Below, piece after piece: positions 7,120 through 64,000 of a DNA stretch of 64,000 nucleotides; the stretch's first letter is position 1; every line of letters begins with the position of its first letter. A program made the position numbers and the translations under genes. The notes under the pieces are model-generated. The model was not told where the DNA came from and did not search any database. It worked only from the letters and a program-made list of their open reading frames with translations. The DNA comes from Mobula hypostoma. Taxonomy: Eukaryota. Location: assembly GCF_963921235.1 (NCBI RefSeq), contig NC_086108.1, forward strand, positions 93,436,001-93,500,000. Direction: 5' to 3'.

Positions 7120-7550
7120 TTGATTTCTTTAACTTCCAGTAATTTATCACCCTCCCAATCGCTTTTATCTCCCCGTTCCCCACTCTAGCTCTCCTTTTTT
7201 CTCTTCTCTTCTCCTCACCTGCCTATCACCACTCCCTGCTGCCTCGGTCTTCCTTTTCTCTGATATTCCGCTCTCCTCTGTGGCCCTTTACGTTGTCCAT
7301 CTATTACCTCCCAGTTTCTCACTTCATCCCTCCCCCTTCCCCCACCTATCTGGCTTCATGTATTGCTTTCCAGCTTGTACTCCTTTCCCTCCCCCCCTCC
7401 ATCTTACTCTGGCTTCCATCCCCTTCCTTTCCAGTCCTGATGGAAGGGTCTCAGCTTGAAACGTTGATTGTTTATTCCTTTCCATAGATGCTGCCAAGTT
7501 CCTCCCGTATTTTGTATGTGTTACTTTGGATCTGAGCAATCTCGTGTTCA
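7120..7550 (+). mobile_element. Old Penelope-like 3' remnant with degenerate hammerhead motif
   Basis: C/T-rich UTR, cctgatggaagggtctcagcttgaaacgttga at about 7436-7467, then ccatagatgctgcc. Confidence 0.7.
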
Positions 7551-9999: not shown

Positions 10000-10485
10000 A
10001 CATCTTCGAGACAAGTAAACACAATATGCCAACATAAGGTCACCCTCATGGTGAAGAAGCAACATCTTATATTCCATCTGGTAGCCTCCAACCTGATGGG
10101 ACAAATATCAATTTCTCCTCCTGGTAAACCAATTCCACATCCCCCGACCTTCCTCTATTCACCACTCGGAACTTCCCCCTGGGTCCCGTCCTTCCCTTTC
10201 TCCTCTGGTCCACTCTCCTCTCCCATCAGATTCCTTCTTCTCCAGCCCTTGACCTTTCTCACACACCTGGCTTCACCTTTCATCTTCCAGCTAGCCTCCT
10301 TCCCTTCCCCCCACCTTTTTCTTCTGGCATCTTCCCCCTTCCTTCTTAGTCCTAAAGAAGGATCTCAGCCTGAAACATCGACTATCTATTCATTTCCATA
10401 GGTACTGCATGATCTGCTGAGTTTCTCCAGCATTTTGTGTGTGTGTTGCTTTGGACTTACCGCATCTGCAGACCTTCTCATGTTT
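10000..10485 (+). mobile_element. Old Penelope-like 3' remnant
   Basis: KKQHLIFHL, equivalent to EEQHLIFRL of the young family. Degenerate hammerhead cctaaagaaggatctcagcctgaaacatcgac at about 10351-10382. Confidence 0.75.
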
Positions 10486-14407: not shown

Positions 14408-15325
14408 AGAAACATAGAAAACCTACAGCACAATACAGGCCCTTCGACCCACAAGGCTGTGCCGAACATGTCCCTACCTTAGATCTACCTAGGCTTTACC
14501 CAGAGCCCTCTATTTTTCTAAGCTCCATGTAGCCATCCAGGAGCCTTTTAAAAGACCGTCTTTTCCGCCTCCACCACCAGCAGCAGCCCATTCCACGCAC
14601 TCTGTGCAAAAAAACTTACCCCTGACATCTCCTCTGTACCTGCTTCCAAACACTTTAAAACTATGTCCTCTTGTGCTGGCCATTTCAGCCCTGAGGAAAA
14701 GCCTCTATCCACATAATCAATGCCTCTCATCATCTTGTACACCTCTATCAAGTCTTATCCTCCGTCGCTCCAAGGAGACAAGGCCGAGTTCCCCAATCCA
14801 GGCAACGTCCTTGTCAATCTCCTCTGCACCCTTTCTATGGTTTCCATATCCTTCCTGTAGTGAGCCGACCAGAATTGAGCACAGTACTCCAAGTGGGGTT
14901 TGACCAGGGTCCTATATAGCTGCAACATTACCTCTCGGCTCTTAAACTCAATCCCACACTTGATGAAGGCCAATGCACCGTATACCTTCTTAACCACAGA
15001 GTCAACCTGCATAGCAGCTTCGACGTCGACTGCGCCTCTTCCTATAGATGCTGCTTGGCCTGCTGCGTTCACCAGCAACTTTGATGTATGTTAGCAGCTT
15101 TAACTGTCCTACGGACTTGGTCTCCAAGATCCCGCTGATTCTCCACACTGCCAAGGCTCTTACCTTTAATACCATATTCTGCCATCTATCTGACCTACCA
15201 AAATGAACCACCTCACACTCATCTGGGTTCAGCTCCATCTGCCACTTCTCAGCTCAGTTTTGCATCTTGTCAATGTCCCGTTGTAAGCTCTGACAGCCCT
15301 CCACGCTAACCACAACACCCCCAAC
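14408..15325 (-). mobile_element. CR1 LINE 3' fragment, interrupted by a Penelope mini-insert
   Basis: VMLQLYRTLVKPHLEYCAQFWSAHYRKD and MIEVYKMMRG remnants. Confidence 0.85.
15021..15091 (+). mobile_element. 71-bp Penelope-like terminal fragment with 9-bp TSD
   Basis: Near-identical to 63806-63875. TSD tagcagctt at 15012-15020 and 15092-15100. Confidence 0.85.
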
Positions 15326-21437: not shown

Positions 21438-22015
21438 TGTTAGAGGCACATAATAAAGTAGGCCAAAATCAGCATGGTTTCCTTAAGGAAAAACTTTGCC
21501 TGACAAACCTTTTGGAATTATTTGAGGAAATAACAAGCAGGATAGACAAAGGAGAATCAGAGAATTCTCTGCTTAATAAGATAAAAGCTCATAGTATTAC
21601 AAGAAAGATACTTGCATGGATAGAAGATTGGATGACTGGCAGGAAGGAAACAATGGGAATAAAGGGGGCCTTTTCTGGTTGGCTGCTGGTGATTAGTGGT
21701 GTGCCACAGGGCTTGTTTTTGGGATCGCTTCTTTTCATGTTATATGTCAATGATTTGGGTGAAGAATTGATGGCTTTGTGGTTAGGTCTGCGGATAATAT
21801 GAAAATAGGTGGAGGGGAAGACATGTTGAGGAAGAAGGGAGTCTGCAGAAGAACTTAGATAGATTGGAAGAATAGGCAAAGAAGTGGCAGATGGAATATA
21901 GTGTAGGAAAGTGTATGGTCATGCACTTTGGTAGAAGGAATTAAGGTGAAGACTGCTTTCCAAACGCAGTGAACATTCAAGATCTCAGTGGTGCAAATGG
22001 ACTTGAGAGTCCTTG

Positions 22016-22244
22016 CAACACACATCAAAGTTGCTGGTGAACACAGCAGGCCAGGCAGCATCTCTAGGAAGAGGTACAGTTGACGTTTCGGGCCAAGGCC
22101 CTTCGTCAGGAGTTAGTCCTGACAAGGGTCTCAGCCCGAAATGTCGACTGTACCTCTTCCTAGAAATGCTGCCTGGCCTGCTGCGTTCACCAGCTACTTT
22201 GATGTGTGTTGCTTGAAATTCCAGCATCTGCAGATTTCCTCGTG
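22016..22244. mobile_element. Palindromic mini Penelope-like insertion (two inverted terminal fragments) with 14-bp TSD
   Basis: Arms 22016-22111 (-) and 22112-22244 (+). TSD cttgagagtccttg at 22002-22015 and cttgggagtccttg at 22245-22258. Confidence 0.88.
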
Positions 22245-26683: not shown

Positions 26684-27852
26684 GATTCAGAATCGGGTTT
26701 AGTATCACTAGCATTTGTTATGAAATTGGTTGTTATGCGGCAGCTATACATTGTCATACATAATAATAAAAACTATAAATTACAGTATATAGTATTAAGG
26801 AAGTTAAATTAAATAAGAGGTACAAAAAGAGGGAAAAAAGGTAGTGAGATAGTGTTAACACAAGGAATTCTGCAGATGCTGGAAATTCAAGCAACACACA
26901 TCAAAGTTGCTGGTGAACGCAGCAGGCCAGGCAGCATCTCTAGGAAGAGGTACAGTCGACATTTCAGGCTGAGACCCTTCGTCAGGACTAACTGAAGGAA
27001 GAGCTAGTAAGAGATTTGAAAGTGGGAGGGGAAGAGGGAGATCCAAAATGATAGGAGAAGACAGGAGGGGGAGGGATGGAGCCAAGAGCTGGACAGGTGA
27101 TTGGCAAAAGGGGTATGAGAGGATCATGGGACAGGAGGCCCGGGGAGAAGGAAAAGGGGGAGGGGGGGAAAAAGCCTAGAGGATGGGCAAGGGGTATAGT
27201 CAGAGGGCCAGAGGGAGAAAAAGGAGAGTGAGAGAAAGAATGTGTGTATATAAATAACGGATGGGGTACGAGGGGGAGGTGGGGCATTAGCGGAAGTTAG
27301 AGAGGTCAATGTTCATGCCATCAGGTTGGAGGCTACCCAGACGGAATATAAGGTGTTGTTCCTCCAACCTGAGTGTGGCTTCATCTTTACAGTAGAGGAG
27401 GCCGTGTCAGAATGGGAATGGGATGTGGAATTAAAATGTGTGGCCACTGGGAGATAATGAGGTAGTGTTCATGGGTTCACTGTCCATTCAGAAATCTGAT
27501 GGCAGAGGGGAAGAAGCTGTTCCTGAATCACTGAGTGTGTGCCTTCAGGCTCTATACCTCCTTCCTGATGGTAACAGTGAGAAGACAGCGTGTCCTGGGT
27601 GATGGGGGTCCTTAATGATGGATGCCTCCCTTTTAAGGCATCGCTCCTTGAAGATGTCCTGGATGCTGGGGAGGCTGGTGCCTGTGATGGAGCTGACAGA
27701 GTTTACAACTATCTGCAGATTATTTTAATCCTGTGCAGTGGCCCACCCTTATCAGATGGTGTTGCGGCCAGTTCGAATGCTCTCTACGGTACACCTGTAA
27801 AAGTTTGTGAGTGTCTTCAGATCTTCTCAAACTCCTAATGAACTATAGCCAC
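26684..27852 (-). mobile_element. Rex/Babar-like 3' fragment interrupted by a Penelope-like fragment
   Basis: Host motifs cattcagaaatctgatggcagaggggaagaagctgttcctgaatc. Confidence 0.75.
26857..27454 (-). mobile_element. Young Penelope-like 3' fragment with hammerhead motif at 26954-26989
   Basis: Highly similar to 61641-62245. Imperfect TSD tagtgagatagtgtt / taatgaggtagtgtt. Confidence 0.88.
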
Positions 27853-49520: not shown

Positions 49521-51559
49521 TCTGACAGGGAAAAGAGCAAACACACCGACAATTTGGGACATGTCTAAAAAATGCTCTAAACTCAGTAAAGTATATTATG
49601 TACATTGTACATTCAGTTATTTTTGCTCATCAGGGTGAGCAAGGTTTCTGCATGCAGTGGAAGTTTTCTAATTGAGCGTGTCAAATTCAGCATCATTCAC
49701 TCTCAATTCTGTGTAATAGTGTTCACTGAAAGCCATGTCTCAGCCTCCAGGCACCACAGAGTGAGCAAGTATGTTGACAGTTTCCATTTTCTACACCTAC
49801 AGTGTATGGCTGTTATTGCAAAGTTGGTGGCATGAATGATTTCCCCTGCGGGGACCTGACAGGGGCAGGACTGAGACACGAGAAACTTCAGATGCTGGAA
49901 CTGAGACGGGATTGAAATGTAGTTTCCATAGTTTCCCTTCATCCCATCATTCTAGGTTGATTCCAACCCAGTTCAAATGTCTTGAACACCAGCTTTTAAT
50001 TATCTATCCAGTTCTCCAGAATTGTTTCCTCTTTCTTGCTGAACAATATTCACACTTCAAGGCATATTGTCTGGTTCTGTGAATCTGCAGAGGATTATAG
50101 GGAAAAGAAATATTTTAATGTAGTTAGAAGACAACAACATCTGGTCAATGGGAAAAAATGAAGATTTCAATATTTGTTTAAAGAACAAAAACATATTCAT
50201 AACGTTAATCATTTTTAAAAATTTGCTCCCACAATTTATAACCTGCTCTTTGGATCTATTACAGATTACACCATATTCTCAATTATTGCAAACTTTTATC
50301 ATGACCTTGACTGAGCCAAATTGTAATTTTTGCTTTTTTGTCTAAATCGAATATTCACACAAATTTGTTGTTTGAATATGGGAATATTGCCTCCAGAGTA
50401 ATTCCCCAATTACTTTATGTCGATGAGTATTTTTTAAAGTAACATGTAAATAAGCTGTTAATAAATGCTATTAAAAGACTGAAAAAATCTTTAAGGACAT
50501 CGACTTTTTCTTACCTCTGGAACCAGAAACGTATCAAAAGACCTTTAGTTTCATGTCGTCTTGCAGAACAGTATATTAGTGTTCCATAAACTCGGATACT
50601 TACCTCAGGTATGTGAATTGCAAACATGTTTATCTTAATTTGCGTTTCAGGATATTTGGAATACTCGACTAGACCAATAAAAAAACTTAAGTTAATCTTT
50701 CATCTCAGAGACCTGAAGGCTTGACGTCGGTAAAAGGAAAAACTACTGTTGGTGATCTTGTTACAAGAAAAATTTTGGAATATTTTAATCACCAAGTATC
50801 AAAGAAAAAATCCTTAATAATCCTTCCACACACAAAAAAAATCTTCATTTTATACTAAGATGTTCCACCTATTATAATTATTTTTCTTTTTCTCACCTCT
50901 AGGGGCAAATACTTTCCTCAATGTCAGTATTAGATGTAATAAGAAATGTCTAGTGATTACTTCCAGCTTGGTTTTTACTTTTGTCCTCCCCTCCCCAACA
51001 GCGTGAGCTTGTGAGGCACAAGTCCACGCGTAAAAAAATATTTCTCAGGGCTTTTCTCAGGGACGTGCAAATGTACAAATCAGTACATTTGAAGAGAAAC
51101 TATGGAAACTACATTCGGGTCATTTCAATCCCGTCTCAGTTCCAACATCTGAAGTTTCTTGTGCCTAAATTACTCTCACTACCAAGCCTTGTGAGTAAAT
51201 GTGACAGGGGCTTATTTATCATTCGTGTTGCTGTAAACCCTGGATCACCGCCGCACTTCCGTGGAGCAACATGCTAGAGGAACTCAGGCAGCTTCTACGG
51301 AGAGAAATGAACAGCCGAATGTTTGCCCAGAGCTTTCATCAGGTTCCTCCAGTATTTTTGTGTGTGTTGCTCCAAATTTCCAGCATCTGCAGTCTCTCGT
51401 GTCTCCAATACTTCCGTGAATGTTAGGATGTGTAAGTGTTAAATATCCATGCATGCAAGCAAGAAGGGCTGGCAGAAGATAAAACAGCTCATTTATTTCC
51501 ACTGAACTGCTTGGCCAGTGCAGTTTTCCTCTAAAGCTCGCATTTTGATTGGATTTCAT

Positions 51560-52330
51560 CACTCGGACGTTGACGTACTCAAAAATTTTCCACTGGATTA
51601 GAAAAAAATCTCAGCAGCCCACCCCTCAAATGCCAATGCAACCCGATCCCTCTCCCTTCACCTGTTACGGCTGCACCAGATTTCTGCCCCGGGCGGGGGG
51701 AGGAGGGAGCGGCGCTCGGCCAATCGGCTGCCCGAGCTGAGGTCACGCGGGGGCGAGGCGGGCGCTGGGCAAGTGGTGAAGGTAAACGGCGGCGGATGAG
51801 AGTTTTTCCTCCCCCTCCCCCGAGCAGCGACCAAGTGGCGAGACGTCAAGCGCTGCCTTTTGCAGCCTTGAAAGGATTCCGTAAAACAAAAGGGCGATGA
51901 CAACCAAAACATTAGCGGGATCTAACCCCAGCTCGGTGAAGCGGGTGAGTGTTGATTTCTGCTGGCGGCGGGGGTACAGCTCGGCTCGGTTGTCCCGACC
52001 CCCAGGAGGGGATTTTCCCTTCCGCGCCGCGAACCGGGAGACTGGGATCCCTCCTGGAAGTGGTGGCGACGCGATTTGGAGCGGTGTGCTCGCCCTGCTG
52101 GTGTGAAGCAGAGAAAGTGACCGTTACTCGAGGCTCGTGGTGCGCGGCGCGGAGCGGAGCGGAGCCCAGCCCGGCGGGCGGCGTGCTCTCCTTCCGGTGG
52201 GCTTGCGGCGGCGGTGCGGGTTCCTACAGCGCTGGACCCTCTAACTCAACACCGGACCAACGCCTCCTCCTCCCCCCCCCCAACTTCCCTTCCACAACTC
52301 TCTACATCGGCGTCTACAACATTTCCGCCC
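51560..52330. promoter_or_regulatory. CpG island / promoter of ARHGAP29
   Basis: CpG-rich, with CCAAT at 51720-51724, GC-box-like ggggcgaggcgggcg near 51749-51764 and a strong splice donor at 51945. Boundaries approximate. Confidence 0.8.
51760..51944 (+). other. ARHGAP29: Probable non-coding first exon (5' UTR) of ARHGAP29; start approximate
   Basis: Consensus donor CGG|GTGAGT at 51944/51945 downstream of CCAAT/GC boxes. The next acceptor is ttctcttcatag| at 54195/54196. Confidence 0.55.
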
Positions 52331-54282: not shown

Positions 54283-54541
54283 ATGTTGCGACAGACTGGA
54301 AGTAATAAACGTGGTTTAGGTTTCTCCCGTTTATCCAGTTCAAATTTCTTTGTGTTGCCCAGCTCAGGAAACTGGAGTATGGGCCGAAGTGTCAAGAGTG
54401 GTTCTGTCAGCAGCATCAGCTCTAACTCAGACTGTTATGACAATCCAGTTGTGGATCCAGAATACATAATGCAGTTGGTGAATGATGTCAGGAAGTTTGC
54501 AGATGTACTGGAGCATTTGAAAGAAGCCTTTCTTTCAGGAG
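54283..54541 (+). CDS. ARHGAP29: ARHGAP29 (Rho GTPase-activating protein 29) first coding exon; full exon 54196-54541
   Basis: ...SISSNSDCYDNPVVDPEYIMQLVNDVRKFADVLEHLKEAFLS resembles recalled human SLSSNSIFDPDYIKELVNDIRKFSHMLLYLKEAIFS. In-frame TAA upstream (54208-54210), phase-1 donor G|gtaggt. Head-to-head with ABCD3, as recalled for human 1p22. Confidence 0.88.
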
Positions 54542-55074
54542 GTAGGTTATTTATTTAATGTTCATCCGTGAATTTCCTGTGAATAAGCTTGCTTTAATGA
54601 TTTGAAGCAAGCAGTATAGAAATAGTGACAACTTTGGAAGTAGCAACTCAACCAAAGCCAAAATACTGCTTAAGTTGTTACTTGTGTTCTTGTACAGAGA
54701 AACCTTTCCCTAAAGCAAAATGTTCCTTTAGCCTTGTAGATGCTTTGATCATTCAACTTGTCACCATTCATAAAATTAACTCGTTATTTGTTCAATCCCT
54801 GGATATGGGCTTTACTGAAAGAGTCACATTCCTAGATGCCTTGAGAAGGAGGGGTTTTGAACCACAGAAGTTTCTTAAGTGGTGAAGGTGGCTCCCACTG
54901 TGTTGTTGCCAAGAAATTTTGAGGTATTTTGTTCAGCAGTGATTGAAGAATGCTGATTAAATGTTCAGATCTGAATGGTATGGGTTTTGGGAGCCAGAGC
55001 ACCATTTGTGTATGTTTTAAAATGTAATGGATGTTGTGAACTTTGACTGCGTTACCCGAATAATGTGCAGTATA

Positions 55075-56406
55075 CAGGTGTCCCCCGCTTTTCGAACATT
55101 CGCTTAACGGAACCTCACTGTTACAAAAGACCTACATTAGTTCCCTGTTTTCGCTAACAGAAGGTGTTTTCACCGTTACGAAAGAAGGCAGCACGCGCCC
55201 CGAGCAGCCGCTCACCCCCGGATTCGGAACGGCATTCTCGCCGGCATTGCTTAAACACGTTCCTGTGAGCAGCCGTTTGTAAGATGAGTTCTAAGGTATC
55301 GGAAAAGCCTAAAAGAGCTCGTAAGGGTGTTACACTTAGTGTAAAACTAGACATAATAAAGCGTTTTGATCGTGGTGAACGAAGTAAGGACAAATTGAGT
55401 TTGGCTTGTGGAAGTTGACGAAGATGATGTTGAAGAGGTTTTGACATCCCATGACCAAGAACTGATAGATGAAGAGCTGATGCAATTGGAAGAGGAAAGG
55501 ATAACAATCGAAACCGAATGCAGTAACGAACGGGCCGCGGACAGATACCGATTTGCGGAGAATGCAGCGGTGACTGGAACGCACTCAGCACATCTTTAAG
55601 AAAAAAACCGAAATAAACATGCTAATTAATTAGGTGCCGCCCGGCACATAATTGTCAGCCCAAATCAGAGGCGACGCAATCGCCTCTGATCTGGGCCAAC
55701 ATTTACGTGCCGGGTGGCACCTAATTAATTAGCTTGTTTATTTCGGCTTTTTTCTTAAAGATGTGCTGGATGCGTCCCGGCCACCGCTGCACCCCTGCAT
55801 GCTTTGCGAATCGGTATCGGTCGGCAGCCCGGAGGGTGGGGGCCACTGCACCACCCAAACTCTGACGACTCAGTCTAAGACACCATCATCAGTGTGCTTG
55901 GCAAGCTGTCTTCCCAATTCCCGTAAATGATACTACACTGTACATACATTATTTCTACTTTATATCGGCTGTATATTTTTACATGTTATTTGGTATGATT
56001 TGGCAGCTTCATAGCTTAAAGGTTACTGGAGAGCGCTTGAGTGAGATTTTCTGCCGAGAGCACTTGCACCGTGTTTGTGCCGATGGCACTTGCGCCGTGA
56101 TTTTGCCAACAGCACTTGCGTGAGATTTTCGCTACGGTGGACAGTGCGGCCATGATTGTGGAAAAGTATTTCTACTTTATATAGACCGTGTATTTATCAT
56201 ATCATATTCCTCCTTTTACTACATGTTACTGTTATTTTAGGTTTTATGTGTTATTTGGCATGATTTGGTAGGTTATTTTTGGGTCTGCGAATGCTCACAA
56301 ATTTTTCCCATATAAATAAATGGTAATTGCTTCTTCGCTTTACGACATTCCGGCTTACGAACCGTTTCATAGGAACGCTGTACCTTCGGATGGTACGGGA
56401 AACCTG
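55075..56406 (+). mobile_element. Internally deleted Tigger/pogo DNA transposon
   Basis: TA-flanked TIRs caggtgtcccccg / cgggaaacctg. Transposase N-terminal remnant from 55284 (MSSKVSEKPKRARKGVTLSVKLDIIKRFDRGERSKD) and C-terminal EVDEDDVEEVLTSHDQELIDEELMQLEEE. Confidence 0.85.
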
Positions 56407-56539
56407 TATTTCAATTCAGTAATATGAGTGAAAAGAGCAGAAAAGAATACAGGTGAATGAATAGCTTTTGTTTTTGGTGATTTTAAAGTTGAGATCCCAT
56501 TCATTTGGGTAATGGAAATCGTCGTTGCATACTTGTGTG

Positions 56540-57450
56540 CAGAGATTGTGCAATACTTGAAATAGATCATCTTTCCCATTTTGGGCAACCGCTGTCAATT
56601 CCTTCCTGTCCCTTAACTCACTTCTTAACACACCAAACTGTGTTTCCACCATGTTTGTCGTATAAAATTGATATAGACTTCCTCTCTTACCTAGTTCCAG
56701 GCCTCTGATCCTTGACAGAGGACACTCTCCTGCCCAATTCTCCTGTGGTCCCATATCCCACTGCATCCCTGTCACCACTCCTGACTTTTCTCTTTCCCCT
56801 CTCTCCTTTTCCCCACTTCTGATTCCAAGCTTCAGTCCAGCTCCAACCCTTGCTATCTCTTTACTATCCCTGCCTGCCTGTGATGCTGAACAGTCAATCC
56901 TCAGCAAAGACTTCCCTTTTAGATCTTTGTGACCGTACCTCCTGCAAATTGGTGAAACCAAGAGTGAACTAGGCAGCTGTTTTGGAGAGCACCTGTACCC
57001 TATCCATAACGGCCATCTTGACATTCCAGTTGTTGGTTTGTTGGAAGTTGTTTTAACATTTTCTCACACCTGTACCAACCTGTTTGTCTTCTGCCACAGA
57101 GTTCGAGGATAGATGGGAAGAACAACATCTTGTATTTGTCTCAGGTAGCTTGCAGTTACCTGAAATCAGAAAATTTGCATCCCTGTAGTCCCCTTCCCCA
57201 CACACTCAATTATCCACCAGATTTTCTTCTCCCTTTGTTCACTTTTCCCATCCTTTCTGCTCATCTTGTTCTATCGGCCCATCTTCCCTTCTCCATCTCA
57301 TTCCATCGATCACCTACTATTCTGTACTCCACCCCACCTATGTACTGGCCATCTTTCCTGGTGCAGAGCCTTGACCTGAAAAGTCAGATTACACCCTTTG
57401 CTTCCATAGATGTTGCTTGACCTGTTGAGTTCCTCCAACATCCTGTTTTG
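56540..57450 (+). mobile_element. Old Penelope-like remnant
   Basis: attggtgaaaccaag...tttggagagcacct (IGET...EHL), gaacaacatcttgtatt and ccatagatgttgcttgacctg. Confidence 0.65.
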
Positions 57451-58727
57451 TTCCAAGTATAAAGGTTTGTTTGGTGTCGTGATTTTTTAAATTAAAATTC
57501 CTATACCCATTAAAATAAGCAGGTAATAGTAATGCCAAACATCATAATTTTGCAATAAGGAATTGCAAAACATCAACTTTAAAGAAATAATAAAAATAAT
57601 TTAGCACTCCCATCTTCCCCCCTCCCCACCCCCTACTTTTACTGCTATTGCTTTCCTCTTTCTTATTTCTGGTGATCATTAACATGTTTAACAGTTTCTT
57701 TCCATAACTGCTGCTTGCAAGATTGTTTCCAACATATTCTGTTTTTATTTCTAATTGCCAGCATCTGCAGTTTTTTGATTTCCAGAAATCCCCTAGTTTC
57801 CCAGTAAATATAACATAATAACTGAGATTGGATAGCCCTGGGGAGAGTTGATCATGGTGTTCATTTATCGTGTCTACAAGAAAAGAATCTTTCTTTTTTG
57901 CTATTATATCACTCTTTCCAGCAAGCTTTCCAACCATGAACTAAACTACCTCTTCTGAATCGTACAGAATGCCTTATGCGTTTGTAGGTTCTTCCACTCT
58001 TCCCCAATGCTGTTTCTTGACTTCGAATTTAAATATCTATATTTTTGCTTCTGCTCTGACGCTGGTTTAGTGTACACAAGCAGGTATTATATATGTAATC
58101 TCAGCAGTGGGTGTTTAACTTATCTATATTTCAGCAGAATAGGAATGCAAAATTTGCCCTTGGTTGTGTATTTAATGAGTTTGCTCACCTAGTTCTCTTG
58201 GGAAATTAATGATACTATAAAATATCCAAAAGCCTGTGTGGCGTAACATAGAATTGTTCTGCCACAATGGTACCATTTAGCCCATCAAATGTATGTCACT
58301 TGTTTCAAAGCAATCTGTTCAGATCCATTCCTTGCTATTTTCCTATAACCCTTCAAGCTGATTTCCCCCACTGCCTGCCAAACCAGTTCCCATTTGAAAG
58401 TATTGAAATTTGAAAGATTGGCAATATTGGCGCCACACTTAATCAGTAAGTTTTAGATCAATATTGCTTTGCATTCTTAAAATGGTTTTTGCTTGCGTTC
58501 TCCCTGCAGTTTTTCACTACTTTCCAAATCCTTGGATTACTGGCTAAACTTCACATGATCTTGTATAGCACCATCAAATAACCTTCCAGTTTATTTGCTA
58601 AAATTGAAGCAATTCTGGTTTCTTCAGCTTCAGTTTTTATCTAGAATATCTCAAATCTGGTACTAAATCTCATAAATCCATTTTTATTACCCTCTAAGGC
58701 ATTCATGTAATTCTGAAAGTCAAAGCA

Positions 58728-58950
58728 AGACACACAAAATACTGATGGAACTCAGCAAATCGGGCAGCATCCATGGAAATGAATAAACAGTCAACATTTC
58801 AGGCCAAAACCTTCCATCAGGACTGGAAAGGAAGTTGGGGAAGAAGCCAGAATAAGAAGGTGGGGGGGGGGAAGAGGACAAATTAGAAGATGATAGGTGA
58901 AACCGGGGTGGGGTGAAGTAAGAAACTGGAAGGCAATATGTTAAAAAGGT
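58728..58950 (-). mobile_element. Old Penelope-like 3' remnant
   Basis: cagtcaacatttcaggccaaaaccttccatcaggactgg is an antisense degenerate hammerhead. Confidence 0.7.
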
Positions 58951-60534
58951 TGAGGAAATAATTCTGGAACCTTATGAACACTGAGAAAGAAAGGAAGAGT
59001 GTAGATTTTTGACAGATTATAAGAAATCTTGACAGGTTAGAAATGAATAGATTGTAGATAAAATTAAGGATTATGAATTTTATTTTAATATTTGCTGAAC
59101 TAATTTAAAGCAAAGTATAAATCATAAACCTCTCCCTAGGTAATTGTTACATTCATTCAAAACATAACCTGTTTTTTCCTCTTGATCTCTGATGCTGTGC
59201 ATTTCCTGGTTAAAAATATGTTCTGCTTTCTTAAATTACTGGCACAGAACACAAAGATGATTACACTTCTTCCCATGTAGTAGGATTCATAACAAATGTT
59301 ACAAATGTCACAATGCCACAGTAGTACAGTTAAGAGCTATTGTCTTGCAGCTGCAGTGCTGAAGTCTGGTGTGTGTGTGTAGTTTGCATGTTCTTCCTGT
59401 GACTGCTTGAGCTTCTTGTAGGTGTTCTGGTTAACTTCTACATTCCAAAAATATGCCTGTGTAAATAGTCCCTACCGTGTAGCATGTGGTAGAATATATT
59501 GGGATTAATATAGTATTGGTGTATATGTTTGCTTGATGTGAACTTGGATAGGCTAGAGTTGTGTAATTCTTATGAACACTCTTTTGGGAATGCTTCATTA
59601 TGGTCTGTGTCATTTCAGAATTGTTTCAACAATCGTGTTATTATCTGTAAAATTGCATCCCTCTGTAGAGCACATCAGCTAAGTCTTTGCATTCCTGTTT
59701 ACTCCCCATGGTACACAATTGGAATTCCAAAGAAGTGTTTTAATTGCTTTGTTCCTGATTCAATTCCTGACTGCTGTGTTGTTGCTTCACTGTCATCTGG
59801 GTGTTTTTAGCATATCTTAGGTAATGTTAATTACTTTTTAATATTACTTCAAAGTTGAAATGTTTTAAAGCTTTACCTCTGCATATTTAATTGCCTTAGT
59901 TCTCTGGTGTTCTCATTTGTAAACTCCTTTCAGAGAATTAACCACATTGACAGGTTCTTCACAGCAACACAGAAGTTCAGATAATACAATATGTAATAGA
60001 ATTTATATTGTTGTATTCCATTCTGCCCATTGAATCTTTGCTGCATCCCAGGGCAATCACATTTAGCCATTTTCCCCTTGTTTCCCTGTGACCTTCCTGA
60101 TTCTGACTATCTGTATACACCAGGGTTAACTTAACAGTGGTTAATTAATCTACCATTGCATCTTTGGAATGTGGCGGGGGGGAAGCTATAGCTTCCTGGG
60201 AAAACCTATGTGGTCACAGTGAGAATGTGCAAATTTTAAACCTTTTGCCAAATGATTATTATGAGCCTATTACAGCTCGGGGTGTTCAAGTGTTCAATTT
60301 TGGTGCTGTCTACAAGGAGTTTGCACATTCTCTGAACCATGTGGGTTTCCTCCAGGTGCTCTGGTCTCTTCCCACAATCCAAAGATAGGTTGATTGATCA
60401 TTGTAAATTGTTCTGTGATTAAGCTAGAGTTAAATAGGTGGGCAACAAGGTGGTGCTGTATCTCAAAATAAATTAGCATTTTGACTTTTTGTATCACTTT
60501 GTAAGATCTTACTGTGCTACTAGCTTTACCTGTG

Positions 60535-61030
60535 CTGATGTAATTGTACAGTGGAGAGCATTCTAACTGGCTGCATCACCGTCTGGTATGGGGGAGGAGG
60601 GGGGAGACACTGCACAGGATCGAAATAAGGTGCCTAAAGTTGTAAACTCAGTCAGCTTCATCATGGGCACTAGTCTCCCCAGCATCCAGGATATCTTCAA
60701 GGAACAATACCGCCTAAAGGCTGTATCCACCATTAAGGAATCCAGTCACCCAGGACATGCCCTTTTCTCATTGATGCCATCAGGGAGGAGGTGCAGGAGC
60801 CTGAAGGCACACATTCAATGATTCAGGAATAGCTTCTTCTCTGCCATCAGATTTTTGAATAGATATTGAACCTATGAATACCACCCTTCTGCTTTTTTTT
60901 CCTCTTTTTGAACTACATGTTTAATTTAACACACATATACATATTCTGTAATATATCATTATTTATGCAGTGTACTGCTGTAATATAACAACAAATTTCA
61001 TGGCATATGCCAGGGGTAATAATTCTGATT
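60535..61030 (+). mobile_element. Rex/Babar-like 3' fragment
   Basis: gagagcattctaactggctgcatcacc...SHPGHALFSLMPSGRR. Confidence 0.8.
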
Positions 61031-61640
61031 CACAGTATTTGGTTTTGTGGTGTTTTGGAATGCCTAGATCTGTCACTTGTATAGTTTCTATGTTGAAGCT
61101 TATGCTTTTGAAAAATATATTCTTGGGATTTGGAAGAACTTCATTTAATAAGCATTTGTTATTAACTTGTAGAATGTAGTTGGGGACTTTTGACGATATA
61201 TTATTGCAGTGTTCTTCCACTATGCCTTTCCACGATTTTGACATGGAGAAAATGAAGTATCTACATCGCAATACTAATCCCACAATATCAGACAGACCTC
61301 CACAGCAGTTTTGTGGGTTGTCCAAAGAGTCTGGGTCTTGATGCTTTGTTTCCCTCTTGGCTATTCCCACATCTCAGATCAATTGTTTGAGGAAGGGCCC
61401 TAGCCATGATCTGTACTAATTTACATAATGCACAAAAGTACTTCTGTGTAACAGAGTTTAAGGTTAATTTTGCTTTATGTGGCAAAACTTTGAAATTTAT
61501 AGTATTTAATTTGTCACATTTTTCATGTTCATCACCAGTAATGTTGCACTTGGTAGTGCCAAAATGTTAAAAATCAGTTAATATTTTAGATAATTTTACT
61601 AAATTAAATATTATAGGAACATAAACATAGTTTGGCCAAA

Positions 61641-63877
61641 CAACAGGAATTCTGCAGATGCTGGAAATTCAAGCAACACACATCAAAGTTGCTGCTGAAC
61701 GCAGCAGGCCAGGCAGCATCTGTAGGAAGAGATGCAGTCGATGTTTCAGGCCGAGACCCTTCGTCAGGACTAACTGAAGGAAGAGTGAGTAAGGGATTTG
61801 AAAGTTGGAGGGGGACGGGGAGATCCAAAATGATAGGAGGAGACAGGAGGGGGAGGGATAGAGCCAAGAGCTGGACAGGTGATAGGCAAAAGGGGATACG
61901 AGAGGATCATGGGACAGGAGGTCTGGGAAGAAAGACCCGGGGGGGGGGGTACCCAGAGGATGGGCAAGAGGTATATTCAGAGGGACAGAGGGAGAAAAAG
62001 GAGAGTGAGAGAAAGAATGTGTGTGTAAAAATAAGTAACAGATGGGGTACGAGGGGGAGGTGGGGCCTTAGCGGAAGTCAGAGAAGTCGATGTTCATGCC
62101 ATCAGGTTGGAGGCTACCCAGACGGAATATAAGGTGTTGTTCCTCCAACCTGAGTGTGGCTTCATCTTTACAGTAGAGGAGGCCGTGGATAGACATGTCA
62201 GAATGGGAATGGGATGTGGAATTAAAATGTGTGGCCACTGGGAGATCCTGCTTTCTCTGGCGGACAGAGCGTAGATGTTCAGCAAAGCGGTCTCCCAGTC
62301 TGCGTCGGGTCTCGCCAATATATAAAAGGCCACATCGGGAGCACCGGACGCAGTATATCACCCCAGTCGACTCACAGGTGAAGTGTTGCCTCACCTGGAA
62401 GGACTGTTTGGGGCCCTGAATGGTGGTAAGGGAGGAAGTGTAAGGGCATGTGTAGCACTTGTTCCGCTTACACGGATAAGTGCCAGGAGGGAGATCAGTG
62501 GGGAGGGATGGGGGGGATGAATGGACAAGGGAGTTGCGTAGGGAGCGATCCATGCAGAATGCAGAGAGAGGGGGGGAGGGAAAGATGTGCTTAGTGGTGG
62601 GATCCCGTTGGAGGTGGCGGAAATTACGGAGAATAATATGTTGGACCCGGAGGCTGGTGGGGTAGTAGGTGAGGACCAGGGGAACCCTATTCCTAGTGGA
62701 AATTCCTCCGTCTCTGCCGCATCTGCTCTCAGGATGAGGCTTTTCATTCTAGGACGAGGGAGATGTCTTCCTTTTTTAAAGAAAGGGGCTTCCCTTCCTC
62801 CACTATCAACTCTGCTCTTAAACACATCTCCCCCATTTCACGTACATCTGCTCTCACTCCATCCTCCCGCCACCCCACTAGGAATAGGGTTCCCCTGGTC
62901 CTCACCTACCACCCCACCAGCCTCCGGGTCCAACATATTATTCTCCGTAACTTCCGTCACCTCCAACGGGATCCCACCACTAAGCACATCTTTCCCTCCC
63001 CCTCTCTCTGCATTCCGCAGGGATCGCTCCCTACGCAACTCCCTTGTCCGTTTGTCCCCCCCATCTCTCCCCACTGATCTCCCTCCTGGCACTTATCCGT
63101 GTAAGCGGAACAAGTGCTACACATGCCCTTACACTTCCTCCCTTACTACCATTCGGGGCCCCAAACAGTCCTTCCAGGTGAGGCAACACTTCACCTGTGA
63201 GGTGGCTGGGGTGATATGCTGTGTCCGGTGCTCCCGATGTGGCCTTTTATATATTGGCGAGACCCGACGCAGACTGGGAGACCGCTTTGCTGAACATCTA
63301 TGCTCTGTCCGCCAGAGAAAGCAGGATCTCCCAGTGGCCACACATTTTAATTCCATATCCCATTCCCATTCTGACATGTCTATCCACGGCCTCCTCTACT
63401 GTAAGGATGAAGCCACACTCAGGTTGGAGGAACAACACCTTATATTCCGTCTGGGTAGCCTCCAACCTGATGGCATGAACATCGACTTCTCTAACTTCCG
63501 CTAAGGCCCCACCTCCCCCTCGTACCCCATCCGCTTTTTATTTATATACACACATTCTTTCTCTCTTTCTCCTTTTTCTCCCTCTGTCCCTCTCACTTGG
63601 TTCCCCCCCCCCTTTTCTTTCTCCCCAGGCCTCCTGTCCCATGATCCTCTCGTATCCCCTTTTGCCTATCACCTGTCCAGCTCTTGGCTCTATCCCTCCC
63701 CCTCCTGTCTTCTCCTATCATTTCGGATCTCCCCCCCCCCTCCAACTTTCAAATCCCTTACTCACTCTTCCTTCAGTTAGTCCTGACGAAGGGTCTCGAC
63801 CTGAAACGTCGACTGCGCCTCTTCCTACAGATGCTGCCTGGCCTGCTGCGTTCACCAGCAACTTTGATGTGTGTTGC
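61641..63877. mobile_element. Penelope-like (Neptune-type GIY-YIG) inverted-dimer insertion with 15-bp TSD
   Basis: Arms 61641-62699 (-) and 62700-63877 (+) both encode CKRNKCYTC...CVRCSRCGLLYIGETRRRLGDRFAEH. TSD catagtttggccaaa at 61626-61640 and 63878-63892. Confidence 0.93.
63779..63814 (+). ncRNA. Minimal type-I hammerhead ribozyme motif (Penelope-associated)
   Basis: aguc-CUGACGA-aggGUCUCGAccu-GAAA-C-GUC^gacu: both core boxes, stem I (aguc/gacu), stem II (agg/ccu) and palindromic ACGU as minimal stem III. Confidence 0.75.
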
Positions 63878-64000
63878 CATAGTTTGGCCAAATTGTTTTT
63901 GAACTATTTAACTCTGAATGAGTAATTAGACGACATTGCTCACATAATTTGGTTTGAACTGTCACTTTTTGGCTAAATGAAAGGTATACCTGCGAAAGGG

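What the first reader, a model, noticed from the sequence alone, without database searches (positions are those of the whole stretch)
63779..63814. Intact minimal hammerhead ribozyme motif on the sense strand downstream of the ARHGAP29 first coding exon
Seen: AGUC CUGACGA AGG-GUCUCGA-CCU GAAA CGUC^GACU, with both conserved core boxes, stem I, stem II and the palindrome ACGU in place of a full stem III. Predicted cleavage is after 63810. Established: Penelope-like elements carry such minimal hammerheads, which cleave poorly as monomers and better as dimers. Inference: this copy probably lies in an ARHGAP29 intron in sense orientation, so the host pre-mRNA could carry a latent self-cleaving RNA.
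Basis: partly seen in the sequence, partly recalled or inferred. Interest (0 to 1): 0.75.

Follow-up and report, generated by a model that had tools for sequence, protein, structure and literature searches.

The report
Masked hammerhead in a Penelope stump
The self-cutting RNA motif is really there, but it is the end of one of more than 70,000 copies of a Penelope-type jumping gene, pasted back-to-back into an intron of an ARHGAP29-like gene, where its mirror-image twin would likely pair with it and keep it from cutting, so it is ordinary.

Summary
The minimal type I hammerhead motif at 63779-63814 is real (3 descriptor hits in the window; 1 of 200 shuffles gave any). It lies in the 3' pseudo-LTR of a 5'-truncated, Neptune-type Penelope-like element (PLE). 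The insertion is the textbook inverted form: two head-to-head arms (61673-62699 minus, 62701-63877 plus), a 32-nt tail on one arm, and a 15-bp target-site duplication. The genome holds 73,541 exact core-intact copies, so a sense copy in this 29.6-kb intron has about a 27% chance by density alone. In the pre-mRNA the earlier-transcribed left arm is predicted to pair with 35 of 36 ribozyme bases, and the nearest core-intact sense partner is 31.5 kb away. Contigs of two relatives suggest the site is empty there. Correction: stem II most likely starts one base later, with an extra A and G10.1-U11.1 instead of the usual G-C. Of 99 family copies truncated near the core, 26 begin at the scissile bond, but microhomology explains most. 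No cleavage or RNA data were available. This scan has reported the same kind of insertion on other DNA, including this genome. Verdict: ordinary new member of a known kind.

The parts
63779..63814 (+). Minimal type I hammerhead motif in the 3' pseudo-LTR of the right arm; core intact; extra A after A9; stem II closes with G10.1-U11.1; predicted cut between 63810 and 63811
62701..63877 (+). Right arm: 5'-truncated PLE 3' end (end of the RT-EN linker, GIY-YIG frame ending at 63504 and frameshifted near 63000, then 3' pseudo-LTR); no tail
61673..62699 (-). Left arm: inverted 5'-truncated copy of the same 3' end; 44 substitutions in 1003 aligned columns against the right arm; GIY-YIG frame to 62068 (Pfam PF01541, 22.9 bits, cut-off 22.6)
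61736..61771 (-). Hammerhead motif of the left arm (G16.2 is A, so its helix III palindrome is broken); on the gene's strand it is the antisense partner of the 63779 motif
61641..61672 (-). 32-nt PLE 'tail', present on the left arm only
61626..61640 (+). Target-site duplication, left copy (15 bp)
63878..63892 (+). Target-site duplication, right copy (15 bp, identical)
54283..54541 (+). Host coding exon from the first Met, ARHGAP29/45 N-terminal family; GT donor at 54542
54542..64000 (+). Host intron holding the insertion; continues past the window to window-equivalent 84176 (29,635 nt)

Best explanation
This hammerhead motif is the standard pseudo-LTR ribozyme of an abundant Neptune-type Penelope-like retrotransposon, carried passively into the intron in a single inverted insertion, and it is likely inert in the host pre-mRNA because the mirror-image arm transcribed just before it is predicted to pair with it. 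Shown: the motif, the two arms, the one-sided tail, the 15-bp duplication, the intron position, family copies with one RT + GIY-YIG frame, and the copy number. Inferred: a single target-primed insertion event; masking of the motif by a duplex of about 1 kb; lack of a dimer partner; absence from relatives. Taken from the literature: the ribozyme serves the element's own RNA and cuts weakly, as a dimer or with the element's protein.
For: Identical 15-bp duplications flank the whole 2.2-kb inverted unit, with a 32-nt tail on one arm only, the layout described for PLEs in PMC8557442 and PMC3846280 (passages). Family copies have open frames of 831-1010 aa; two were scanned and match RVT_1 and GIY-YIG, both below Pfam's cut-offs. 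They carry the C-x4-C-x2-C linker and CCHH motifs. Exact genome counts: 55,014 + 18,527 core-intact motifs, reversed-pattern controls 0, one per 47 kb, giving P about 0.27 for a sense copy in this intron. The minimum-energy fold of 61601-63950 pairs 35 of 36 motif bases with 61736-61771, with 1001 long-range pairs; the duplex is -67.3 kcal/mol against -9.7 for the motif's best own fold, which is itself not the active fold. The nearest core-intact sense copy is 31.5 kb downstream, in the next intron. A 2423-nt contig of run X22 aligns up to 61639 and does not enter the tail; a 501-nt contig of X19 starts aligning at the right duplication with 76 letters left over, and a contig of the same depth covers the left flank. 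Published minimal PLE hammerheads show no monomer cleavage (PMC4209133) or need the element's protein (PMC11167929).
Against: No cleavage assay or raw RNA reads were available, so inertness is predicted only. Nearest-neighbour folding ignores proteins, co-transcriptional kinetics and RNA editing that could open the duplex. The empty-site evidence comes from contig ends and a depth match in 2 of 4 DNA-like runs; the other 2 were uninformative and I did not see the unaligned letters. The clade name rests on motifs, not on an RT tree. 26 of 99 family copies truncated near the core start at the scissile bond, a hint that the family ribozyme does cut in vivo.
Confidence: 0.88

Rival explanations
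1. The copy is a latent, conditionally active ribozyme in the ARHGAP29 pre-mRNA: when the duplex is opened or the element's protein is expressed, it cuts the intron and affects splicing or transcript level.
For: Core boxes and stem I are intact and in sense; its loop change strengthens stem II (U-A instead of U-G); protein-assisted cleavage is shown for an anole PLE hammerhead (PMC11167929); domesticated intronic hammerheads exist in amniotes (PMC6155905 passages).
Against: Predicted masking by the left arm; the active-like monomer fold has probability 8e-4 alone and about 1e-6 in local context (secondary-structure model only); no tandem partner; the arm is about 3% diverged from its family, as a decaying copy would be; the site appears empty in relatives; intactness is expected, since 73,541 copies are intact.
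Confidence: 0.07
2. The motif is catalytically dead in this whole young subfamily: the G10.1-U11.1 change fixed in the master element weakened it, and it is kept only as part of the protein-binding or promoter region of the pseudo-LTR.
For: U at 11.1 is in 55,014 exact copies against C in 18,527, far above the decay seen at the motif's other CpG sites in the listings, so it is a master-lineage feature; G10.1-C11.1 is called highly conserved in minimal PLE hammerheads (PMC4209133); hammerhead mutants did not affect insertion in vitro (PMC11167929).
Against: All invariant core bases and the helix III palindrome are kept in the subfamily; a G-U wobble still closes stem II; in relatives' contigs the similarity between subfamilies often starts and stops at the motif's edges (loose ends at 63779 and 63815), which points to selection on this unit. 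This rival does not change the verdict for this locus.
Confidence: 0.2
3. The match is a chance resemblance to a hammerhead.
For: No Rfam hammerhead model matches; the 36-mer folds no better than its shuffles (z -0.53).
Against: 1 of 200 shuffled windows has any descriptor hit against 3 real ones; it sits in the pseudo-LTR, where the literature places it, and has the extra base after A9 and the palindrome that the published descriptor did not ask for. That Rfam's models need a full helix III is recalled, not tested.
Confidence: 0.02

Closest known systems
Minimal type I hammerheads in pseudo-LTRs of metazoan PLEs (Cervera and de la Pena 2014, PMC4209133; parts 1-2 of 4 read)
   Same: Both core boxes, 4-5 bp helix I, unpaired base between A9 and 10.1, palindromic 15.2/16.2 without loop 3, position in the pseudo-LTR, mostly single dispersed copies, and pairs on opposite strands close together.
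   Different: Position 11.1 is U, not the conserved C; helix II is 4 bp (7-8 bp in the Schistosoma families described). The exact count here (73,541) is far above the 4,000 (coelacanth) and 9,000 (Xenopus) given there, though the search methods differ.
EN+ PLE insertions with an inverted 5'-truncated copy, one-sided 30-40 bp tail and TSD; Neptune clade (Craig et al. 2021, PMC8557442; Arkhipova et al. 2013, PMC3846280; passages read)
   Same: Head-to-head inverted arms, 32-nt tail at one end, TSD around the whole unit, C-terminal GIY-YIG with CCHH and a CX2-5CxxC linker.
   Different: The TSD is 15 bp (8-10 bp in the rotifer passages read); both arms are cut inside the ORF, so no RT is left at this locus.
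Poseidon_Ac hammerhead of the green anole (Frangieh et al. 2024, PMC11167929; parts 1-2 of 4 read)
   Same: Vertebrate PLE pseudo-LTR hammerhead followed by a tail whose two ends mark reverse-transcription starts; here 16 of 29 close copies carry the tail and 13 do not.
   Different: Poseidon lacks the linker zinc finger seen here; that ribozyme was assayed (cuts only with element protein), this one was not.
Domesticated intronic hammerheads of amniotes (RECK and others; PMC6155905 passages)
   Same: Type I hammerhead in sense in a vertebrate intron.
   Different: Those are conserved across birds and mammals, with tertiary contacts; this one is one of tens of thousands, minimal, part of a recent TSD-flanked insertion, and apparently absent from relatives.

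Membership tests
Minimal type I hammerhead of PLEs | C3-U4-G5-A6-N7-G8-A9 and G12-A13-A14-A15.1 ... U16.1-H17 core | tested here: met
Minimal type I hammerhead of PLEs | Helix I of 4-5 bp closing the motif, and a helix II | tested here: met
   5 bp including U-G, and 4 bp
Minimal type I hammerhead of PLEs | Unpaired base between A9 and 10.1; palindromic 15.2-16.2 | tested here: met
   favoured register; sequence
Minimal type I hammerhead of PLEs | G10.1-C11.1 pair (highly conserved in the family per PMC4209133, but not part of the invariant core) | tested here: not met
   G-U here and in 55,014 copies; G-C in 18,527 copies of the same family. Filed as a sequence-level member with a variant pair; activity unproven.
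Minimal type I hammerhead of PLEs | Site-specific self-cleavage as a dimer or with element protein | not testable with these tools
   no assay; no raw RNA reads were offered
Rfam hammerhead families | Covariance-model match | tested here: not met
   0 hammerhead hits at gathering score or E<=10
EN+ Penelope-like element | Single ORF with RT followed by C-terminal GIY-YIG | tested here: met
   2 of 2 long family ORFs scanned match RVT_1 (E 1e-5, 5e-5) and GIY-YIG (E 6e-4), below curated cut-offs; they are 93-94% identical to the right arm in DNA
EN+ Penelope-like element | Pseudo-LTR, inverted 5'-truncated copy, one-sided tail, TSD | tested here: met
Neptune clade | CX2-5CxxC linker between RT and EN, plus CCHH in the EN | tested here: met
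   read from the translations; criteria from PMC8557442. Nematis also has a linker motif.
Neptune clade | RT phylogeny | not tested
   no reference RT set at hand
Non-LTR retrozyme | Tandem non-coding units each carrying a hammerhead | tested here: not met
   arms are inverted and carry ORF remnants; no same-strand unit nearby
Domesticated intronic hammerhead (RECK type) | Conserved at the orthologous site across species | tested here: not met
   site inferred empty in 2 of 4 DNA-like runs of relatives, the other 2 uninformative

The most novel reading that the evidence does not exclude
The family's ribozyme really cuts in living cells and leaves a genomic fossil record: 26 of 99 copies truncated near the core begin exactly at the scissile bond. 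With about 73,500 core-intact copies, one per 47 kb, this genome would then carry thousands of sense-strand intronic hammerheads that the element's protein could switch on in host pre-mRNAs, while inverted insertions like this one are self-silenced, predicting that unpaired sense copies are depleted from introns and paired ones are not.
Probability: 0.15. Interest if true: 0.5.

Novelty: new member of a known kind. Interest (0 to 1): 0.12.

Why it matters
For this locus it matters little: it is one of tens of thousands of equivalent stumps and is probably silent. At family level the genome is a useful test bed. Whether minimal PLE hammerheads cut in vivo, and what for, is open (PMC4209133, PMC11167929), and about 10^5 young copies allow counting of truncation points and of strand bias in introns with a power that small families do not give.

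Tried and rejected
Rfam scans of the window and of two narrow stretches: no hammerhead hit, one chance PrrB/RsmZ match at E 4.5. Expression: no RNA holder listed; two runs guessed to be RNA (X1, X5) hold family pseudo-LTR contigs but cannot show strand, ends or this locus, so nothing is concluded on transcription or cleavage ends. In vivo cleavage from truncation points: among the first 100 of 1,512 copies that lack the GAAA box (one of two matches from the same tandem duplication dropped, n=99), 26 start at G1.1 against 18 at the next four positions together (binomial p 1.5e-8). But 15 of the 26 have 2-5 nt of microhomology with the partner arm or with the motif itself, as snap-back priming on the ribozyme's own stems would give. 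The script left 11 without such microhomology against 12 (p 0.0025), but by eye about 5 of those 11 are mutated microhomology, CpG-decay or small-deletion cases, leaving about 6 against 3 per position: inconclusive. The sample is the first 100 on one contig, and the negative filter hides some junction classes. The fuzzy list missed copies seen and was not used for counts. The ESM Atlas gave no usable hit for the exon, so it did not settle ARHGAP29 against ARHGAP45. The Lunse et al. dimer paper was not held; its result is taken from review passages (PMC6765202). Searches for hammerheads or PLE counts in cartilaginous fishes found nothing relevant, except a 2026 preprint that includes one chondrichthyan among retrozyme-bearing genomes (10.64898/2026.07.22.740005; part 1 of 5 and passages; its supplements were not seen and may hold copy numbers). 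A search for the effect of the 10.1-11.1 pair listed two papers that I did not read. A retrozyme or tandem reading was rejected.

Full report
Observation. They hold the C3-A9 box, the G12-A15.1 box, a GUC cleavage triplet ending at 63810, a 4-5 bp helix I and a four-base palindrome in place of helix III. A relaxed descriptor finds 3 such motifs in the window, against a mean of 0.005 in 200 dinucleotide shuffles. The unpaired base matches the published consensus for PLE minimal hammerheads, but the first pair is G10.1-U11.1, not the conserved G-C (PMC4209133). Rfam has no hammerhead match.

Host gene. A coding exon at 54283-54541 matches positions 1-24 of Pfam RHG29_45_N. The next match (positions 28-77, E 4e-13) lies on the same strand 20 kb past the window. 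A GT at 54542 and an AG ending at window-equivalent 84176 join them in phase. The motif is therefore in sense in a 29.6-kb intron. The name ARHGAP29 rather than ARHGAP45 is from recalled likeness; a second locus of the family lies on another contig. Earlier notes call this genome a ray; I did not test that.

What it belongs to. The motif lies 275 nt after the stop codon of a GIY-YIG frame. An inverted copy of the same 1-kb 3' end lies upstream on the minus strand. Identical 15-bp sequences flank the whole unit at 61626-61640 and 63878-63892, and a 32-nt extension is present on the left arm only. The arms meet at 62699/62701 with one extra base between them. They differ at 44 of 1003 aligned columns (K2P 4.5%) and lie 3.2% and 1.9% from the majority of 30 other copies, which were picked as best hits and so are not a random sample. 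Six long family loci carry frames of 831-1010 aa; the two scanned match RVT_1 and GIY-YIG below Pfam's cut-offs, and the translations show a C-x4-C-x2-C linker and CCHH. By the criteria in PMC8557442 this is a Neptune-type EN+ PLE; no tree was built. Inverted truncated copies, a one-sided 30-40 bp tail and a TSD are described features of PLE insertions. The layout is common here: 8 of 29 and 9 of 30 sampled loci have an opposite-strand copy within 1.5 kb upstream, while 5 of 29 and 4 of 30 have a same-strand motif, older decayed ones included. In the first 100 listed matches I count by eye 10 head-to-head pairs, 2 same-strand pairs and 2 convergent pairs within 3.5 kb.

How common. Exact pattern counts in the 3.48-Gb genome: 331 copies of this very 28-mer, 55,014 core-intact motifs with U11.1, 18,527 with C11.1, and 99,866 matches to the GAAA box plus downstream anchor; reversed controls were 0 each time. 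At one per 47 kb, a core-intact sense copy in an intron of this length has P about 0.27. About 47 pseudo-LTR-related hits of all ages lie in the 263 kb examined.

How it most likely works. In the element's own RNA the ribozyme is thought to process multimeric transcripts. Published minimal forms do not cut as monomers and cut weakly as dimers (review passages), and an anole example cuts only with the element's protein, was not needed for insertion in vitro, and showed no cleavage-site reads in RNA-seq. At this locus the host transcript reads the antisense arm first. The minimum-energy fold of 61601-63950 pairs 35 of the 36 motif bases with 61736-61771 inside a duplex of 1001 pairs; the local duplex is -67.3 kcal/mol against -9.7 for the motif alone, and even alone the motif prefers an inactive fold (active-like fold 8e-4). 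A decayed sense copy lies 20 kb on in the same intron, and the nearest core-intact one is 31.5 kb away in the next intron. Masking and the lack of a partner are predictions from secondary-structure models, not measurements.

Conservation. In run X22 a 2423-nt contig aligns to 61137-61639 and goes on without entering the tail. In X19 a 501-nt contig aligns from the right duplication outward with 76 letters over, and a contig of the same depth covers the left flank. Both fit an empty site; X20 and X21 were uninformative. This is inferred from contig ends. It argues against a domesticated intronic ribozyme of the amniote RECK type.

Against my reading. Of 99 copies lacking the GAAA box, 26 start at G1.1 against 18 at the next four positions together. 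Most of these junctions carry 2-5 nt of microhomology from the ribozyme's own stems, which snap-back priming explains without cleavage; after removing them the excess is small. The result is a hint, not a finding. In relatives' contigs, similarity between subfamilies often starts and ends at the motif's edges, which suggests the element lineage keeps the motif under selection. No RNA data bear on this locus.

Novelty. PLE minimal hammerheads, inverted insertions and opposite-strand pairs are all published. The copy number and the dominant U11.1 variant were not found in my searches but are quantitative details. This scan has already noted the same kind of insertion many times (332 notes hold the search words, two of those shown from this genome); these are unchecked AI notes, not independent support. 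Verdict: a real motif and a new member of a known kind, likely silent in the host transcript; interest 0.12.

Noticed in passing
genome-wide: Three quarters of core-intact copies have U instead of C at hammerhead position 11.1, so the most successful subfamily departs from the conserved G10.1-C11.1 pair; the effect on cleavage is unknown.
   Followed up: partly
L099-L198: Very short fold-back stumps often join at the ribozyme's own stems, and 26 of 99 start at the predicted cut site; two are clean deletions of the whole core between the two strands of stem I.
   Followed up: partly
window 22015-22212: A 200-bp fold-back stump with back-to-back decayed hammerheads of the same family.
   Followed up: no
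window 26891-27455 (-), 15023-15092 (+): Further truncated 3' ends of the same PLE family.
   Followed up: no
window 7433-7495, 10338-10449, 57356-57385, 58788-58824: Older, decayed pseudo-LTR copies of related subfamilies with broken hammerhead cores; the one at 10338 follows a decayed GIY-YIG-like frame.
   Followed up: no
window-equivalent 237599-239094 (G000:C50, about 174 kb past the window end): A second inverted two-arm insertion with intact hammerheads on both strands and a 14-bp TSD.
   Followed up: partly
window 61673-62699 and 62701-63877: The right arm is more diverged from the family majority (3.2%) than the left (1.9%), with only 3 shared derived changes, although both seem to come from one insertion; chance or two template RNAs.
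   Followed up: partly
window about 55070-56400: A stretch with internal inverted repeats near 55620-55740 and a short frame that recalls a pogo/Tigger-type transposase N-terminus (recalled likeness, untested).
   Followed up: no
window about 51550-52300: GC- and CpG-rich stretch 2 kb upstream of the first coding exon, a likely promoter or untranslated first exon.
   Followed up: no
G000:C73:42296052-42307776 (-): A second RHG29_45_N locus, probably the paralogous gene.
   Followed up: no
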